The position numbers and the translations under genes were made by a program. DNA of 64,000 nt from an uncultured Chloroflexia bacterium (GTDB lineage Bacteria; Chloroflexota; Limnocylindria; Limnocylindrales; CSP1-4). The DNA lies in NCBI GenBank assembly GCA_963720755.1, contig CAVRGP010000013.1, positions 163,369 through 227,368 on the forward strand. Reading direction: 5' to 3'. Position 1 is the first letter of the stretch. Each line of letters begins with the position of its first letter. The notes below the pieces were generated by a model, which made no database searches, was not told the DNA's origin, and worked only from the letters and a program-made list of their open reading frames with translations. Positions 25,158 to 45,956 of the stretch are shown here, in pieces.

Positions 25158-26699
25158 ATGACACAGACCACAGCACCAGGCAGCCGCGACGTGACCGGGC
25201 TCGAGGCCGGCAGGGTCAGCCACTGGATCGAGGGACGGACCGTCGCCGGGACGTCCGGACGCGAAGGCCCGGTGTACGACCCCGCGACCGGTCAGGTGAC
25301 CCGGCAGGTCGACTTCGCGTCCGTGGAGGAAGTGGGGCTCGCCGTGGCGGCGGCCAAGGCAGCTTTTCCCGTCTGGCGCTCGACCTCGCTGTCCAAGCGG
25401 ACCGACATCATGTTCAAGATCAGGAACCTGGTCGAGGCGAACCGCAAGGAGATCGCGGCGCTGCTGACCGCCGAGCATGGGAAGGTCCCGTCGGATGCGC
25501 TCGGCGAGATCGCCCGGGGCATCGAGAACCTCGAGTTCGCCTGCGGGATCGCCAGCCTGCTCAAGGGCGGGTACTCGGAGCAGGTCTCCGGCGGGGTCGA
25601 TGTCTACCAGATCCGACAGCCGCTCGGGGTCGTTGCCGGGATCACTCCGTTCAACTTCCCGGCCATGGTCCCCATGTGGATGTTCGCGACGGCGATCGCG
25701 GCCGGCAACACGTTCATCCTCAAGCCGTCCGAGAAGGATCCGTCGGCGGCCAACCTCCTGGCCGGGCTGCTGGCCGAGGCCGGCGTCCCGGATGGGGTCT
25801 TCAACGTCGTGCACGGCGACAAGATCGCCGTCGATGCCATCCTCGCGCATCCGGACGTCGCCGCAGTGTCATTCGTCGGTTCCACGCCGATCGCCCGCTA
25901 CATCTACGAGACCGGGACGAAGGCCGGCAAACGCGTCCAGGCGCTCGGTGGGGCCAAGAACCACATGATCGTCCTGCCCGACGCCGACGTCGAGATGGCC
26001 GCGGACGCGGCGGTCTCGGCCGGCTACGGCTCGGCCGGCGAGCGGTGCATGGCGATCGCGACGATCGTGGCGGTCGGTGCGATCGCGGACCCTCTCGTCG
26101 AGGCGATCAAAGTCCGCCTGCCCAGGATCAATGTCGGACCGGGCACGGATGCCACGGCCGAGATGGGTCCGCTGGTCACCCGCCAGCATCGGGACAAGGT
26201 TGCCTCGTACCTCGACAGCGGCCCGGCCCAGGGTGCCACGGTCGTCGCCGATGGCCGGGAGCACCCGCTCTACGACAGCTCCGACGGGTTCTTCCTGGGC
26301 GTTTCGCTGATCGATCACGTGACCCCGGCGATGGATGCCTATCGCGACGAGATCTTCGGCCCGGTCCTGACGGTGATGCGGGTCGACACCTACGACGAGG
26401 CCGTCAAGCTCATCAACGACAACCCCTACGGCAACGGCACGGCGATCTTCACCCGTGACGGCGGCGCGGCGCGCCAGTTCCAGTTCGACGTGAACGCCGG
26501 GATGGTCGGGATCAACGTGCCGATCCCGGTCCCCGTGTCCTACTACAGTTTCGGCGGTTGGAAGAGCTCGCTCTTCGGCGACTTGCACATGTACGGGCCG
26601 GAGGGCGTCCAGTTCTATACCCGGGCCAAGATCGTGACGGCACGTTGGCCGGATCCCGGGACGAGCAAGATCGACCTCGGCTTCCCGCGGACGCGCTAG
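25158..26699 (+). CDS. mmsA: Methylmalonate-semialdehyde / malonate-semialdehyde dehydrogenase (CoA-acylating)
   Basis: ATG preceded by AAGAGG. MmsA-type ALDH motifs (ITPFNFPAMVPMWMFATAIAAGNTFILKPSEKDP, catalytic Cys in GERCMA). Confidence 0.85.
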   Translation: MTQTTAPGSRDVTGLEAGRVSHWIEGRTVAGTSGREGPVYDPATGQVTRQVDFASVEEVGLAVAAAKAAFPVWRSTSLSKRTDIMFKIRNLVEANRKEIAALLTAEHGKVPSDALGEIARGIENLEFACGIASLLKGGYSEQVSGGVDVYQIRQPLGVVAGITPFNFPAMVPMWMFATAIAAGNTFILKPSEKDPSAANLLAGLLAEAGVPDGVFNVVHGDKIAVDAILAHPDVAAVSFVGSTPIARYIYETGTKAGKRVQALGGAKNHMIVLPDADVEMAADAAVSAGYGSAGERCMAIATIVAVGAIADPLVEAIKVRLPRINVGPGTDATAEMGPLVTRQHRDKVASYLDSGPAQGATVVADGREHPLYDSSDGFFLGVSLIDHVTPAMDAYRDEIFGPVLTVMRVDTYDEAVKLINDNPYGNGTAIFTRDGGAARQFQFDVNAGMVGINVPIPVPVSYYSFGGWKSSLFGDLHMYGPEGVQFYTRAKIVTARWPDPGTSKIDLGFPRTR

Positions 26700-26719
26700 G
26701 GGCGATCACACCGGCCAGG

Positions 26720-45300: not shown

Positions 45301-45956
45301 GCGGTCCCGCGGACGACCGGCGCGTCCGGAGTCAGACCCTGGCGGCGGAAGGCCAGGACATCGTCGTCGCGGATCAGGGCCTGGATGTCGTCCCGATCGA
45401 GGATCGCGATCTTGTCGACCTCGTGCGAGGTGCGGAAGCCGTCGAAGAAATGGAGGAACGGGACGCGCGACCGGAGCGTCGCCGCGTGCGCCACCAGCGC
45501 GAAGTCGTGCGCCTCCTGGACCGATCCGGCGGCGAGCATCGCCCAGCCGGTCGTGCGGGCATGCATCACGTCGCTGTGGTCGCCGAAGATCGACAGGGCG
45601 TGGGTCGCGATCGTCCGGGCCGCCACGTGGATGACCGCCGGCGTCAGTTCACCGGCGATCTTGAACATGTTCGGGACCATCAGGAGCAGGCCCTGGGACG
45701 CGGTGAACGTCGTCGCGAGAGCGCCCTTCTGGAGTGCGCCGTGGAGGGCACCGGCCGCCCCCGCCTCGGACTGCATCTCGACGATCTCCGGGACCTTGCC
45801 CCACAGGTTCGGCTGTCCCGCGGCGGACCAGTCGTCACAATGCTCGGCCATCGGGGAGGCCGGGGTGATCGGGTAGATCGAGATGACTTCGCTGACGGCG
45901 TAGGCGACCCGTGCCGCTGCTTCGTTGCCGTCGACACACTCGTGCTGCTTGTCCAC
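42306..45956 (-). CDS. nifJ: Pyruvate:ferredoxin (flavodoxin) oxidoreductase, single-polypeptide NifJ type
   Basis: 1216 aa. N-terminal PFOR domain I (YPITPASPMAEHCDDW). 2x[4Fe-4S] ferredoxin domain (CIDCGKCAMVCPH ... CTGCGVCVDVCP). TPP-binding C-terminal domain (GGDGWAYDIGFGG). GGAGG-N7-GTG start. Confidence 0.9.
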   Translation of the reverse strand: MDKQHECVDGNEAAARVAYAVSEVISIYPITPASPMAEHCDDWSAAGQPNLWGKVPEIVEMQSEAGAAGALHGALQKGALATTFTASQGLLLMVPNMFKIAGELTPAVIHVAARTIATHALSIFGDHSDVMHARTTGWAMLAAGSVQEAHDFALVAHAATLRSRVPFLHFFDGFRTSHEVDKIAILDRDDIQALIRDDDVLAFRRQGLTPDAPVVRGTAQNPDVFFQAREASNPFHLAVPGIVQDVMDELATRTGRQYGLVDYHGAPDADRVVVVMGSASGAVEETVDTLVAAGERVGMLRIRLFQPFPAAALLAALPSTTRAIAVLDRTKEPGAVGEPLYLEVLAALDEAQDVDKPRFATSPRVIGGRYGLSSKEMTPSMIKPIFDELAVARSRRHFTVGIYDDVTHLSLPIDHDFRHSRPAGEVQAMFFGLGSDGTVGANKASIKIIGEGTDLFTQGYFVYDSKKSGSITVSHLRFGPEPIRSTYLIDDADFIACHQFGMLGRTKVLEYAKHGATFLLNAPYGPDEVWEHLPGGVQQLLIDKAIDFWVIDASAVANEAGMGSRINTVMQPCFFQLAGILPPDEAVARIKSWVEATYAKRGEAIVTRNFDAIDSSLARLAHVSLGTVTNDQPTTPSAPEGVPDFVTRVTSRLMAGEGDLLPVSALPVDGTFPTGTTQYEKRAIAQEIPVWDPAICIDCGKCAMVCPHATIRMKVFPSAAVESAPALFLSKEFKSRDLLDHRLTIQVAPDDCTGCGVCVDVCPAKSKTDTSHKAINMEPVLDHRDTERVRWDFFQSIAPLDRGLIPHDSVKGSQVLEPLFEFSGACGGCGETPYIRLVSQLFGDRMIVANATGCSSIYGANLPTTPWAVNAAGRGPAWSNSLFEDNAEFGLGMRLALDAQTDQARRLVERLAPDIGEGLATAILDATQDTEPEITAQRERIDRLRDSLTRIDGPGAADARHLLALAGDLVRTGIWIIGGDGWAYDIGFGGVDQVLSSGRNVNILVLDTEVYSNTGGQSSKATPRGAVAKFAAAGKGTAKKDLGAIARSYGNVYVAQVAMGANDLQTTKALLEADAWPGPSLVIAYSTCIAHGIDMSKSMTHQKDAVRSGYWPLYRFQPSEVDGVKPFKLDSAAPSIPIAEFVGNETRFSVLKRTHPERAAELASLAQSDADEHRHYYEQLADIERTVPHLDRPEANVGAEVEGDAGSGQDGEGGES

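What the first reader, a model, noticed from the sequence alone, without database searches (positions are those of the whole stretch)
25158..45956. About 21 kb catabolic island resembling a reductive pyrimidine / hydantoin pathway, but without a canonical dihydropyrimidine dehydrogenase
The island contains a dihydropyrimidinase/hydantoinase, a C-N hydrolase-type N-carbamoyl amidohydrolase, a class III aminotransferase, and an MmsA-type CoA-acylating semialdehyde dehydrogenase. Together these cover pyrimidine ring opening through to acetyl- or propionyl-CoA. A four-gene NitT/TauT ABC importer sits inside the cluster. The first enzyme of the pathway (PydA, or the PreT/PreA NAD(P)H-dependent dihydropyrimidine dehydrogenase) is absent. 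Three unusual redox genes are present instead: an LLM-family F420-type oxidoreductase, a DHOD-like flavoprotein, and a PFOR. Intercalated genes (SnoaL-like, NlpC/P60, lipid kinase, a 608-aa unknown) suggest a mosaic accessory region rather than a clean operon.
Basis: partly seen in the sequence, partly recalled or inferred. Interest (0 to 1): 0.6.

Follow-up and report, generated by a model that had tools for sequence, protein, structure and literature searches.

The report
Pyrimidine breakdown cluster with F420 reductase
This is a conserved gene cluster for breaking down uracil and thymine in a soil or freshwater Chloroflexota bacterium, in which the usual iron-sulfur first enzyme seems to be replaced by an unrelated enzyme that uses the deazaflavin cofactor F420, a function not yet described for that enzyme family.

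Summary
MmsA starts at 25158 and PFOR ends at 45956. The host is a Limnocylindria (Chloroflexota) bacterium, not an actinobacterium. The region is not a mosaic island. It is a conserved chromosomal cluster flanked by housekeeping genes.

The cluster encodes every step of reductive pyrimidine catabolism except uracil reduction. It has dihydropyrimidinase, a CN-hydrolase-type ureidopropionase, a class III aminotransferase, MmsA and an NMT1/ThiY-type ABC importer.

Comparative genomics singles out one of the three "unusual redox genes". The TIGR03842 F420-dependent luciferase-like protein lies between the hydrolase and the dihydropyrimidinase in 43/43 long related loci. It also sits next to Pyd genes in Streptomyces. 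In Alphaproteobacteria it is the last gene of a cofGHDCE-fno operon beside dihydropyrimidinase, carbamoylase, aminotransferase and a nucleobase permease. No PreT/PreA homologue occurs in any of the 160 loci examined.

The DHOD-like/PFOR pair is a separate module. It stays paired across phyla without Pyd genes, and in one related genome it lies 226 kb from the cluster.

My best reading is an F420H2-dependent dihydropyrimidine dehydrogenase analogue (about 0.6). It is untested biochemically, and I found no description in the literature I could search.

The parts
25158..26699 (+). MmsA, the CoA-acylating (methyl)malonate-semialdehyde dehydrogenase. It is the last step, giving acetyl- or propionyl-CoA.
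   Evidence: TIGR01722, 719 bits against a cut-off of 448.5. ATG at 25158. Present in 33/43 long related loci, convergent with the Pyd operon.
26720..27634 (-). Homocysteine S-methyltransferase (MmuM-like). This is an accessory passenger gene directly after the dihydropyrimidinase, and is not needed for the pathway.
   Evidence: NF007020, 358 bits against 215; PF02574. The likely GTG start at 27634 is 1 nt after the DHP stop. Present in only 10/43 related loci.
27636..29030 (-). Dihydropyrimidinase (PydB). It opens the ring of dihydrouracil or dihydrothymine.
   Evidence: TIGR02033 equivalog, 591 bits against 393; the allantoinase models score about 260, below their cut-offs. A GGAGGG Shine-Dalgarno sequence precedes the ATG. 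Present in 43/43 long related loci.
29148..29333 (-). A 61-aa ORF in the 430-bp LLM-DHP spacer. It is probably a remnant of a membrane-anchored protein that occupies this spacer in relatives.
   Evidence: Read from the sequence. No Pfam hit. In relatives the spacer is 36 bp to 6.4 kb and holds unrelated genes. The N-terminus of the secreted-protein type resembles this ORF.
29461..30453 (-). TIGR03842-family luciferase-like, F420-dependent oxidoreductase. It is the proposed F420H2-dependent uracil/thymine reductase, a non-homologous replacement for PydA.
   Evidence: TIGR03842, 441 bits against 295. The Mer models score 172 and 153, below their cut-offs. The nearest solved structures are Mer 1f07/8qq8/1z69, E 1e-39 over the full length. 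It starts 10 nt after the CN-hydrolase stop. It is conserved with Pyd genes in three phyla.
30464..31354 (-). CN-hydrolase. It is the proposed beta-ureidopropionase (PydC), converting N-carbamoyl-beta-alanine or N-carbamoyl-beta-aminoisobutyrate to the beta-amino acid.
   Evidence: PF00795, 223 bits. The best NCBIfam model is AguB, 267 bits, below its cut-off of 410. PDB neighbours are carbamoylputrescine amidohydrolase (204 bits) and fly/human beta-ureidopropionase (178/169 bits). D-carbamoylases reach only about 100 bits. Present in 42/43 long related loci.
31389..31778 (-). SnoaL_2/NTF2-like protein of 129 aa. It is the first gene of the SnoaL-CNhyd-LLM-DHP transcription unit. Its role is unknown.
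   Evidence: PF12680, E 3e-8. A GAGGAGG sequence precedes the ATG. Present in 33/43 long related loci, always directly upstream of the CN-hydrolase. A 35%-identical homologue precedes the LLM in distant loci L164/L165.
31844..32482 (-). NlpC/P60 cell-wall hydrolase with a signal peptide. It is a lineage-specific insertion between the two divergent operons.
   Evidence: PF00877, 56.8 bits. An orthologue is at the same place in the closest relative, L085.
32763..36014 (+). A three-gene insertion upstream of the aminotransferase. It comprises a DAGK/YegS lipid kinase (32763-33704), a 144-aa ORF (33764-34198) and a 608-aa membrane protein (34188-36014). It is not part of the pathway.
36086..37420 (+). 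Class III (omega) aminotransferase. It is the proposed beta-alanine/beta-aminoisobutyrate transaminase (PydD).
   Evidence: PF00202, 300 bits; NF004718, 532 bits against 472. The nearest solved structure is taurine:2-oxoglutarate aminotransferase 6jix, 325 bits. Present in 36/43 long related loci.
37452..41222 (+). ABC importer made of permease (37452-38396), ATPase (38393-39250), permease (39247-40023) and an NMT1/THI5-type binding protein (40122-41222). It is the proposed pyrimidine uptake system.
   Evidence: PF00528, PF00005 and PF09084. The genes overlap by 4 bp. The binding protein's nearest structures are 4nmy, the pyrimidine-binding ThiY 3ix1, and THI5. The same transporter type flanks the F420-LLM operon in Paracoccus and in L098/L099. 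In other lineages an NCS1 nucleobase permease takes its place.
41299..45956 (-). A neighbouring module that is not part of the pathway. It consists of PFOR (42306-45956) translationally coupled by a 4-bp overlap to a DHOD-like flavoprotein (41299-42309).
   Evidence: TIGR02176, 1718 bits; NF005741, 411 bits. The pair is next to the Pyd cluster only here and in the closest relative. In another Limnocylindria genome it is 226 kb away. It is paired on Methylovirgula and Phenylobacterium plasmids with no Pyd genes. It is absent from the 160 LLM loci.
47237..47887 (-). Uracil phosphoribosyltransferase (Upp), the salvage enzyme for the same substrate. In relatives that lack the PFOR insertion it lies directly next to the importer.
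   Evidence: NF001097, 260 bits. The order Upp-SBP-permease... is seen in L006, L022, L040 and L037.

Best explanation
The region is the chromosomal reductive pyrimidine catabolism (Pyd) cluster of a Limnocylindria (Chloroflexota) bacterium.

Proposed pathway:
1. Uracil or thymine is taken up by the NMT1/ThiY-type ABC importer.
2. The C5=C6 bond is reduced by hydride transfer from F420H2, catalysed by the TIGR03842 luciferase-like enzyme (29461-30453). This enzyme is a Mer-related TIM-barrel protein. It takes the place of the FAD/FMN/4x[4Fe-4S] dihydropyrimidine dehydrogenase.
3. The dihydropyrimidine is opened by dihydropyrimidinase.
4. The product is decarbamoylated by the CN-hydrolase.
5. 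The beta-amino acid is transaminated by the class III aminotransferase.
6. The semialdehyde is converted to acetyl- or propionyl-CoA by MmsA.

What is shown: the identity of PydB, MmsA, the aminotransferase family, the CN-hydrolase branch and the LLM family; and the cross-phylum linkage of the LLM to Pyd genes and to F420 biosynthesis and recycling genes.

What is inferred: the substrate and direction of the LLM, the substrate of the importer, and the absence of a PydA elsewhere in the genome.

The DHOD-like/PFOR pair, the lipid kinase with the 144-aa and 608-aa genes, the NlpC/P60 gene and the homocysteine methyltransferase are neighbours or insertions, not pathway members.
For: 1. All steps but the first are encoded. 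The LLM is the only oxidoreductase besides MmsA that is conserved with them.

2. In 43 Limnocylindria loci of at least 19 kb, dihydropyrimidinase is present in 43 and the CN-hydrolase in 42. The order SnoaL>CNhyd>LLM>DHP is invariant. The LLM starts 10 nt after the hydrolase stop in the window.

3. The linkage is independent in other phyla.
- Streptomyces replicons have CNhyd-aminotransferase-...-DHP-LLM, with all three core proteins above their HMM cut-offs or in the same branch.
- Leisingera plasmids have cofG-cofH-cofD-cofC-cofE-npdG(Fno)-LLM. This operon is divergent from pntAB, an AptA-type aminotransferase, an M20 carbamoylase-family hydrolase, dihydropyrimidinase and an NCS1 nucleobase permease.
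- PydC and the transporter are therefore replaced by non-homologous analogues while the LLM stays.

4. Among the 80 metagenome loci, 62 carry at least one Pyd gene. Of 29 loci with at least 3 kb on both sides, 23 carry DHP or a carbamoylase. Fno is adjacent to the LLM in 21.

5. No PreT, PreA, DHOD-like or PFOR match at E <= 1e-4 occurs in any of the 160 loci. No PreT is in the window.

6. The LLM is closest to Mer. Mer belongs to the F420H2-using "reductase" clade of F420-dependent LLMs (PMC6279831).

7. There are precedents.
- A putative F420/FMN oxidoreductase reduces the uracil C5-C6 bond in mureidomycins (PMC10714638).
- A putative F420 LLM was noted in place of the DPD-like reductase in Chloroflexota uricolytic clusters (PMC12507026).
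- Variation in the electron donor for PydA is known (PydAc, PMC7332683).

8. Upp lies beside the importer in several relatives. The binding protein belongs to the pyrimidine-binding ThiY/THI5 fold family.
Against: - There is no biochemical evidence for any member of TIGR03842. The argument rests on guilt by association.
- The rest of this genome could not be searched, so a canonical PydA/PreTA elsewhere is not excluded.
- No F420 biosynthesis or Fno gene is in the window or within 10 kb of the LLM in the Limnocylindria loci. F420 production by this organism is therefore assumed.
- Characterised F420-dependent LLMs reduce iminium or carbonyl groups, not enone/enamide C=C bonds. That chemistry is typical of the FDOR fold.
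- Some homologue contexts lack DHP within 10 kb. Paracoccus has only an ABC transporter, L109/L112/L118 have only the aminotransferase and MmsA, and L164-L171 have NCS1 and other transporters.
- The LLM-DHP spacer is an insertion hotspot, so the two genes are not always co-transcribed.
Confidence: 0.6

Rival explanations
1. The cluster is a Pyd cluster, but the first step is done by a canonical PydA/PreTA encoded elsewhere in the genome. The LLM would then serve a peripheral redox step. One candidate is F420-dependent reduction of malonate or methylmalonate semialdehyde to the 3-hydroxy acid, a PydE/RutE-like detoxification. Another is oxidation of an alcohol or aldehyde side product.
For: Many characterised F420 LLMs are alcohol or carbonyl oxidoreductases. 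Fgd, Adf and fHMAD are all found as weaker PDB neighbours. Some proteobacterial loci show the F420-LLM operon next to only the aminotransferase and MmsA (L109, L112, L118). Semialdehyde reductases are known members of Pyd/Rut variants (legend in PMC7332683). The rest of the genome could not be searched.
Against: MmsA already disposes of the semialdehyde in most clusters, including those with the order DHP-NCS1-CNhyd-LLM-MmsA. The LLM is far closer to the reductase Mer than to the dehydrogenase clade, 140 against 73 bits or less. No PydA/PreTA is seen in any of the 160 loci, although these genes usually cluster with PydB/C. Carrying a whole F420 biosynthesis operon plus Fno and PntAB for a dispensable side reaction is unparsimonious.
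Confidence: 0.2
2. The DHOD-like flavoprotein, fed with electrons by the adjacent PFOR, would be a ferredoxin-type dihydropyrimidine dehydrogenase comparable to clostridial PydAc.
For: The DHOD-like gene has a PF01180 FMN barrel and is distantly similar to the FMN domain of pig DPD, E 4e-8. It is translationally coupled to PFOR and abuts the importer in this genome and its closest relative. A ferredoxin-dependent DPD exists (PMC7332683).
Against: The pair is absent from the 160 LLM/Pyd loci. In one Limnocylindria genome it lies 226 kb from the Pyd cluster. In relatives Upp directly follows the importer. The same nifJ/DHOD-like pair occurs on alphaproteobacterial plasmids with no Pyd genes. The protein has no Fe-S domain, unlike PydAc/PreA. 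It scores 58 bits against the PreA cut-off of 335. At the aligned position of the catalytic Cys it has Tyr-His, and it lacks the equivalent of Asn609.
Confidence: 0.05
3. The cluster is not for pyrimidine bases. It would serve already-reduced cyclic amides, such as imported dihydropyrimidines or 5-substituted hydantoins, or another carbamoyl compound. No ring reduction would then be needed, and the LLM would have an unrelated role.
For: Dihydropyrimidinases are also hydantoinases. The CN-hydrolase has no equivalog assignment and scores best, below cut-off, with carbamoylputrescine amidase. The substrate of the ABC importer is unproven.
Against: The CN-hydrolase is much closer to beta-ureidopropionases than to D-carbamoylases. 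The downstream aminotransferase and MmsA fit beta-alanine or beta-aminoisobutyrate, not alpha-amino acids. Upp and NCS1 nucleobase permeases are recurrent neighbours. This reading leaves the strictly conserved LLM unexplained.
Confidence: 0.1
4. The LLM is a bacterial Mer-like F420-dependent methylene-tetrahydrofolate or methylene-tetrahydromethanopterin reductase. It would feed methyl groups to the adjacent homocysteine methyltransferase.
For: The closest characterised homologue is Mer, at roughly 35-40% identity over the full length. A homocysteine S-methyltransferase follows the dihydropyrimidinase in the window. The Paracoccus homologue lies near formate dehydrogenase genes.
Against: The methyltransferase is present in only 10/43 relatives and is of the MmuM (S-methylmethionine/AdoMet) type, not the methyl-folate type. 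The Mer equivalog models score below their cut-offs. The conserved partners across phyla are Pyd genes, not C1 genes.
Confidence: 0.05

Closest known systems
Canonical reductive pyrimidine degradation (Pyd) pathway: PydA, PydB, PydC, then beta-alanine aminotransferase and malonate-semialdehyde dehydrogenase
   Same: PydB (TIGR02033), a nitrilase-superfamily PydC as in eukaryotes, an omega-aminotransferase, MmsA and a dedicated transporter are clustered. The predicted chemistry from dihydropyrimidine to acyl-CoA is the same.
   Different: There is no PydA or PreT/PreA. The only conserved candidate for uracil reduction is a non-homologous F420-dependent TIM-barrel LLM with no FAD, FMN or Fe-S clusters.
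PydAc, the ferredoxin-dependent dihydropyrimidine dehydrogenase of Clostridium chromiireducens (PMC7332683)
   Same: It is a Pyd-cluster variant in which the electron donor for uracil reduction differs from NAD(P)H.
   Different: PydAc is still a PydA homologue, with an FMN domain and Fe-S domains. Here the enzyme fold itself is replaced and the donor would be F420H2.
Mer, the F420-dependent 5,10-methylene-tetrahydromethanopterin reductase (PDB 1f07, 1z69, 8qq8)
   Same: It is the closest characterised homologue of the LLM. The two align over their full length at E 1e-39, share the bacterial-luciferase TIM barrel, and belong to the F420H2-using reductase clade.
   Different: The Mer equivalog HMMs are not met. 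The genomic context is pyrimidine catabolism in aerobic heterotrophs, not C1 metabolism. Residues invariant in the family in the 207-290 region (NHV.D, YDY..H) have no counterpart in Mer.
RutA, the FMN-dependent pyrimidine monooxygenase of the Rut pathway
   Same: It is also a luciferase-like-fold enzyme that attacks the uracil ring as the first step of pyrimidine catabolism.
   Different: RutA uses FMNH2 and O2 to cleave the ring, and works with RutB-G. No RutA model is among the LLM's best family hits, and no Rut genes were found among the window genes annotated. Instead the hydrolytic Pyd enzymes, which need a dihydropyrimidine, are present.
NpsU/SSGG-03002 of napsamycin/mureidomycin biosynthesis (PMC10714638), and the putative F420 LLM of Chloroflexota uricolytic clusters (PMC12507026)
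   Same: Both are putative F420-type oxidoreductases, implicated genetically or by context in reducing the C5=C6 bond of a uracil moiety or a purine-derived ring.
   Different: The first acts on an antibiotic intermediate in a biosynthetic cluster, and its cofactor and activity were not shown in vitro. The second is a context-only suggestion in a purine pathway. Neither is linked to PydB/PydC.
The nifJ (PFOR) plus PRK07565 'dihydroorotate dehydrogenase-like protein' gene pair
   Same: Window genes 41299-45956 are full members of both families and are translationally coupled, as on the Methylovirgula and Phenylobacterium plasmids.
   Different: This pair has no demonstrated function. Here it merely abuts the Pyd cluster. 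The alphaproteobacterial versions carry an extra NAD(P)-binding protein upstream.

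Membership tests
Reductive pyrimidine (Pyd) catabolic cluster | Dihydropyrimidinase (PydB) | tested here: met
   TIGR02033 equivalog, 591 bits against a cut-off of 393. The allantoinase and dihydroorotase models score below their cut-offs.
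Reductive pyrimidine (Pyd) catabolic cluster | Beta-ureidopropionase (PydC) | tested here: inconclusive
   CN_hydrolase PF00795, 223 bits, with no equivalog model met (AguB 267 bits, below 410). The PDB neighbours include fly and human beta-ureidopropionase (178/169 bits), well above the D-carbamoylases at about 100 bits. It is strictly syntenic with PydB. Substrate not tested.
Reductive pyrimidine (Pyd) catabolic cluster | Dihydropyrimidine dehydrogenase (PydA or PreT/PreA) | tested here: not met
   There is no PreT match in the window. PreA matches only the DHOD-like gene at 22% identity. The PreA HMM scores 58 bits against a cut-off of 335. There are no PreT/PreA matches in the 160 related loci. 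The rest of the genome is not testable.
Reductive pyrimidine (Pyd) catabolic cluster | Beta-amino-acid aminotransferase and CoA-acylating semialdehyde dehydrogenase | tested here: met
   PF00202 and NF004718, 532 bits against 472; TIGR01722, 719 bits against 448. The amino-donor specificity of the transaminase was not tested.
TIGR03842 LLM-class F420-dependent oxidoreductase | Scores above the curated family cut-off over its full length | tested here: met
   441.5 bits against 295.45, profile positions 1-328 of 329. The Leisingera and Streptomyces homologues score 506 and 590 bits.
TIGR03842 LLM-class F420-dependent oxidoreductase | Dependence on coenzyme F420 | tested here: met
   The evidence is indirect. 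Homologues at 46-48% identity are the terminal gene of cofG-cofH-cofD-cofC-cofE-npdG operons on Leisingera and Paracoccus plasmids and in about 20 metagenome loci. The nearest solved structures all bind F420. Cofactor binding itself is not testable here.
TIGR03842 LLM-class F420-dependent oxidoreductase | Host organism synthesises F420 | not testable with these tools
   There are no cof or fno genes in the 64-kb window or within 10 kb of the LLM in the Limnocylindria loci.
Mer (methylene-H4MPT reductase) | Meets the Mer equivalog models | tested here: not met
   NF002619, 171.7 bits against 276; TIGR03555, 153.4 bits against 348.7.
Dihydropyrimidine dehydrogenase / PydAc (tested for the DHOD-like gene 41299-42309) | FMN barrel plus [4Fe-4S] ferredoxin domain(s), a catalytic Cys loop and pyrimidine-binding Asn residues | tested here: not met
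   Only PF01180 is present (54.6 bits), with no Fer4 domain in the 336 aa. The aligned motif is ELNLYH, where DPD/DHOD-B have ELN(L/I)SC. The Asn609 equivalent is Ala/Pro, although the Asn668 and Asn736 equivalents are present.
PRK07565 DHOD-like protein and PFOR | Family HMMs above cut-off; the two genes adjacent | tested here: met
   NF005741, 410.7 bits against 303; TIGR02176, 1718 bits against 911. The genes overlap by 4 bp. The same pairing is seen.
Rut pathway | RutA-type pyrimidine monooxygenase with RutB-G partners | tested here: not met
   No RutA model is among the 25 best of the 31 NCBIfam hits for the LLM. No isochorismatase-type RutB or flavin reductase was found among the window genes annotated.
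Horizontally acquired genomic island | Compositional break, mobility genes or a tRNA at the border, and patchy distribution among relatives | tested here: not met
   GC is 0.66-0.71 throughout. The only tRNA is at 1976-2068. The flanks are PEPCK, Mdh, Lgt, Upp, asparaginase, GltX and ProS. The cluster and its Mdh-Lgt-MmsA flank are conserved across Limnocylindria.

The most novel reading that the evidence does not exclude
TIGR03842 proteins would be F420H2-dependent dihydropyrimidine dehydrogenases. They would be an iron-sulfur-free, non-homologous replacement for PydA, spread across Chloroflexota, Actinomycetota and Alphaproteobacteria. In the marine and soil Alphaproteobacteria, the whole F420 biosynthesis operon, together with Fno and in some cases PntAB, would be maintained essentially to serve this one enzyme. 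That would make pyrimidine catabolism the first defined physiological role of F420 in Proteobacteria, and a core role in Limnocylindria.
Probability: 0.5. Interest if true: 0.8.

Novelty: new variant of a known kind. Interest (0 to 1): 0.7.

Why it matters
If the prediction holds, it does four things.
- It assigns a function to a large, highly conserved "hypothetical equivalog" family. More than 8000 close homologues were scored, and members are 80-90% identical across a whole bacterial class.
- It adds a third, non-homologous electron-donor solution (F420H2) to the first step of the most widespread pyrimidine degradation pathway.
- It gives a concrete, easily testable answer to an open question stated in the 2021 F420 review: what F420 is for in Proteobacteria and Chloroflexi.
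- It suggests an ecological rationale, namely avoiding a 16-iron, oxygen-sensitive enzyme. This last point is my inference.

It would also correct routine annotation. Pyd clusters of this type currently appear to lack the first enzyme.

Tried and rejected
**Exact-sequence look-up.** Looking up the window LLM and its 100%-identical database entry found no contig on record, so the source genome could not be retrieved.

**Genome-collection scan.** The scan with the LLM returned only Limnocylindria, the 80 best of 562. More distant contexts therefore had to come from plasmid tblastn and a metagenome scan seeded with the Leisingera protein.

**Literature.** Ten full-text searches combined F420 with:
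- dihydropyrimidinase;
- dihydropyrimidine dehydrogenase;
- dihydrouracil;
- pyrimidine degradation;
- ureidopropionase;
- uracil plus thymine;
- TIGR03842.

None found a description of an F420-dependent DPD. The paper that defined the family (Selengut & Haft 2010) is not held in the library.

**RNA and regulatory signals.** Rfam found no riboswitch or other RNA in the window. The promoter and terminator scans were uninformative, at or below shuffle expectation.

**The DHOD-like/PFOR pair as the missing reductase.** I considered this and rejected it on synteny and active-site grounds.

**The island/HGT reading.** Rejected.

**LLM structure.** I did not model the LLM. The tools return no coordinates, so no pocket analysis would have been possible.

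Full report
**Observation**

The window has about 68% GC, so I chose reading frames by third-position GC content. I then scanned the products against Pfam and NCBIfam.

| Gene | Coordinates | Evidence |
|---|---|---|
| MmsA | 25158-26699 (+) | TIGR01722, 719 bits; ATG at 25158 |
| Dihydropyrimidinase | 27636-29030 (-) | TIGR02033, 591 bits against a cut-off of 393 |
| TIGR03842 F420-class luciferase-like oxidoreductase (LLM) | 29461-30453 (-) | 441 bits against 295 |
| CN-hydrolase | 30464-31354 (-) | PF00795 |
| SnoaL_2 protein | 31389-31778 (-) | PF12680 |
| NlpC/P60 | 31844-32482 (-) | PF00877 |
| DAGK/YegS lipid kinase | 32763-33704 (+) | PF00781, PF19279 |
| 144-aa ORF | 33764-34198 (+) | no family hit |
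| 608-aa unknown | 34188-36014 (+) | no family hit |
| Class III aminotransferase | 36086-37420 (+) | PF00202, NF004718 |
| ABC importer: permease, ATPase, permease, NMT1 binding protein | 37452-41222 (+) | PF00528, PF00005, PF09084 |
| DHOD-like protein | 41299-42309 (-) | NF005741, 411 bits against 303 |
| PFOR | 42306-45956 (-) | TIGR02176, 1718 bits |

The window contains no PreT. E. coli PreA matches only the DHOD-like gene, at 22% identity.

**Organism and setting**

A scan of one genome per GTDB species with the LLM returned 80 best loci. All are from Chloroflexota of class Limnocylindria (the CSP1-4 lineage), at 79-92% identity. The host is therefore not an actinobacterium.

The region does not behave as a horizontally acquired island.
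- GC content is flat at 0.66-0.71.
- The only tRNA is 23 kb upstream.
- The flanks are housekeeping genes. Upstream are SufB, cystathionine beta-synthase, cystathionine gamma-lyase, PEPCK, Mdh and Lgt. Downstream are Upp, asparaginase II, GltX and ProS.

**Synteny within the class**

I ran tblastn with the window proteins against the 43 loci of at least 19 kb.

| Gene | Loci (of 43) |
|---|---|
| Dihydropyrimidinase | 43 |
| CN-hydrolase | 42 |
| Aminotransferase | 36 |
| MmsA | 33 |
| SnoaL-like gene | 33 |
| ABC ATPase and permeases | 27-31 |
| Lipid kinase | 15 |
| 608-aa gene | 10 |
| 144-aa gene | 7 |
| Homocysteine methyltransferase | 10 |
| DHOD-like gene | 0 |
| PFOR | 0 |

The canonical layout is [SBP<permease<ATPase<permease<aminotransferase] divergent from [SnoaL>CN-hydrolase>LLM>(variable spacer)>dihydropyrimidinase>(methyltransferase)], followed by convergent MmsA<Lgt<Mdh. 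The cluster is thus a conserved unit with small lineage-specific insertions.

The LLM-dihydropyrimidinase spacer ranges from 36 bp to 6.4 kb. In relatives it holds unrelated genes: a secreted protein, a PAS-kinase/receiver hybrid, and UbiA-glycosyltransferase fusions. The window keeps a 430-bp spacer with a 61-aa ORF that resembles the N-terminus of the secreted-protein type.

**The DHOD-like/PFOR pair**

- The closest relative (L085) has the window's arrangement, with PFOR and the DHOD-like gene between Upp and the binding protein.
- In four other genomes Upp lies directly beside the importer.
- In the genome that carries L048, the PFOR/DHOD-like pair lies at 1.38-1.40 Mb and the Pyd cluster at 1.15-1.17 Mb of the same contig, 226 kb apart.
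- On Methylovirgula and Phenylobacterium plasmids, the trio of NAD(P)-binding protein, nifJ and DHOD-like protein stands alone with no Pyd genes. In Acaryochloris and Parabacteroides the DHOD-like gene stands without nifJ.
- The protein has only a PF01180 barrel and no Fe-S domain.
- It is weakly similar to DHOD-B and to the FMN domain of pig DPD.
- It reads ELNLYH where those enzymes have ELN(L/I)SC with the catalytic Cys.
- It also lacks the equivalent of Asn609.

I conclude that this pair is a separate module that abuts the cluster only in this sublineage.

**The LLM across phyla**

A tblastn search of the plasmid collection found TIGR03842 homologues at 46-50% identity in Leisingera, Paracoccus and Streptomyces.

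*Leisingera caerulea.* The gene closes a cofG-cofH-cofD-cofC-cofE-npdG(Fno)-LLM operon. Divergently transcribed from it are:
- pntAB;
- an AptA-type omega-aminotransferase;
- an M20 hydantoinase/carbamoylase-family hydrolase;
- dihydropyrimidinase (TIGR02033, 615 bits);
- an NCS1 nucleobase permease.

*Paracoccus alcaliphilus.* The same F420 operon ends in the LLM and is followed by an ABC transporter related to the window's.

*Streptomyces.* Two replicons show CN-hydrolase (67% identity), an aminotransferase, a gap of about 4 kb, then dihydropyrimidinase (61%) followed directly by the LLM (50%).

*Metagenome loci.* A scan seeded with an alignment headed by the Leisingera protein gave 80 further loci.
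- 62 carry at least one Pyd gene.
- 23 of the 29 with at least 3 kb on both sides carry dihydropyrimidinase or a carbamoylase.
- Fno is adjacent to the LLM in 21.
- Gene orders are diverse: CNhyd-LLM-DHP, DHP-NCS1-CNhyd-LLM-MmsA, and cofGHDCE-Fno-LLM-ZnHyd-DHP.

Across all 160 loci there is no PreT, PreA, DHOD-like or PFOR match, even at E 1e-4.

The LLM therefore stays linked to the pathway while PydC and the transporter are swapped for analogues. PydC is a CN-hydrolase in some lineages and an M20 hydrolase in others. The transporter is an NMT1-ABC system in some and an NCS1 permease in others. That pattern is what one expects of a pathway enzyme.

**What kind of enzyme it is**

The LLM aligns over its full length with Mer, the F420-dependent methylene-H4MPT reductase (1f07, E 1e-39). 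It matches the F420 dehydrogenases Fgd, fHMAD and Adf far less well. It does not reach the Mer equivalog cut-offs. Mascotti et al. place Mer in the clade of F420-dependent LLMs that use F420H2 as a reductant (PMC6279831). The family is compact and strongly conserved: 589 clusters at 50% identity reach E 1e-30 (these include Mer), and members are 84-91% identical among the 120 best database hits.

**Other pathway members**

- The CN-hydrolase is nearest to carbamoylputrescine amidohydrolase and to fly and human beta-ureidopropionase. It is much further from D-carbamoylases.
- The aminotransferase is nearest to taurine:2-oxoglutarate aminotransferase, which acts on a beta-amino compound.
- The binding protein is nearest to 4nmy, to ThiY (which binds a formylaminopyrimidine) and to THI5.

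**Mechanism proposed**

1. Uracil or thymine is imported.
2. It is reduced at C5=C6 by F420H2 on the LLM.
3. The ring is opened by PydB.
4. The product is decarbamoylated by the CN-hydrolase.
5. The beta-amino acid is transaminated.
6. The semialdehyde is converted to acyl-CoA by MmsA.

In the alphaproteobacterial version the electron path would be NADH to NADPH (PntAB), NADPH to F420H2 (Fno), then F420H2 to uracil (LLM). The identities of the genes and their linkage are shown. The LLM's substrate, the importer's ligand, and F420 synthesis by this organism are inferred.

**Literature**

All ten full-text searches found no description of an F420-dependent dihydropyrimidine dehydrogenase. The relevant precedents are:
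- The ferredoxin-dependent PydAc (PMC7332683).
- A putative F420/FMN oxidoreductase that reduces the uracil C5-C6 bond in mureidomycins, shown genetically only (PMC10714638).
- A remark that Chloroflexota uricolytic clusters carry a putative F420 luciferase-family reductase in place of YgfK/UacX (PMC12507026).
- The 2021 F420 review, which states that no F420-dependent enzyme had been studied outside Actinobacteria and that experimental work is needed to establish the cofactor's role there (PMC8498797).

**Weaknesses**

- There is no biochemistry for any member of the family.
- The rest of this genome could not be searched for PydA or for F420 biosynthesis genes.
- Known F420 LLMs reduce iminium or carbonyl groups rather than enamide C=C bonds.
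- Some homologue contexts lack dihydropyrimidinase within 10 kb.

The main rival is that the LLM is a peripheral reductase, for example of malonate semialdehyde, with PydA encoded elsewhere. I give that 0.2, against 0.6 for the main reading.

**Verdict**

This is an ordinary Pyd cluster in all steps but one. The missing step is most likely filled by a non-homologous F420-dependent enzyme family whose function has not been described. I rate it a new variant of a known kind, with interest 0.7.

Noticed in passing
window 41299-45956 (-); L086, L087, L089: PFOR (nifJ) and a PRK07565 'dihydroorotate dehydrogenase-like' flavoprotein form a translationally coupled pair. The pairing is conserved from Chloroflexota to Alphaproteobacteria, where an NAD(P)-binding protein of about 550 aa precedes them. 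The DHOD-like partner lacks the catalytic Cys and has no Fe-S domain. Its function is unknown; it may be an electron-accepting partner of PFOR in aerobes.
   Followed up: partly
[not shown]
   Followed up: partly
window 31389-31778 (-); L164/L165: A SnoaL_2/NTF2-like protein of 129 aa is the first gene of the CN-hydrolase-LLM operon in 33/43 relatives. A 35%-identical homologue directly precedes the LLM in a distant lineage. It may have a role in the pathway, for example C5 epimerisation of dihydrothymine, but this is my speculation.
   Followed up: partly
window 29031-29460; loci L003, L022, L030, L050, L055, L056: The spacer between the LLM and dihydropyrimidinase is an insertion hotspot, 36 bp to 6.4 kb long. 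In relatives it carries a secreted or anchored protein, a PAS-histidine kinase-receiver hybrid, or a UbiA-glycosyltransferase fusion. The window keeps only a 61-aa ORF (29148-29333) that looks like a remnant.
   Followed up: partly
window 26720-27634 (-) and 17676-20879 (+): A MmuM-type homocysteine S-methyltransferase is coupled to the 3' end of the dihydropyrimidinase gene, here and in 10/43 relatives. Cystathionine beta-synthase and a Cys/Met PLP enzyme lie about 6 kb upstream. I found no functional link to pyrimidine catabolism.
   Followed up: no
L082/L084 (Leisingera caerulea plasmid NZ_CP081074), L107, L110: In Alphaproteobacteria, the proton-translocating transhydrogenase genes pntAB sit inside the F420/Pyd island next to the aminotransferase. 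This suggests a dedicated NADPH supply for Fno.
   Followed up: no
window 24008-25087 (+) and 15748-16848 (+): There are two Lgt-like genes. The upstream one is a good prolipoprotein diacylglyceryl transferase (TIGR00544, 166 bits). The copy next to MmsA scores only 42 bits, below cut-off, yet is conserved beside MmsA in 25/43 relatives.
   Followed up: no
window 58055-60103 (+): A PAS-HisKA-HATPase histidine kinase is fused at its C-terminus to an endonuclease/exonuclease/phosphatase (PF03372) domain, an unusual output architecture.
   Followed up: no
L164, L165, L169, L171: A more distant LLM subgroup (about 52% identity to the window protein) sits with an NCS1 nucleobase permease, a LysE exporter, a duplicated ECF-type ATPase, a QueT-like S component and an AdoHcy-hydrolase-like gene, rather than with dihydropyrimidinase. 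It may act on a different nucleobase-like substrate.
   Followed up: partly
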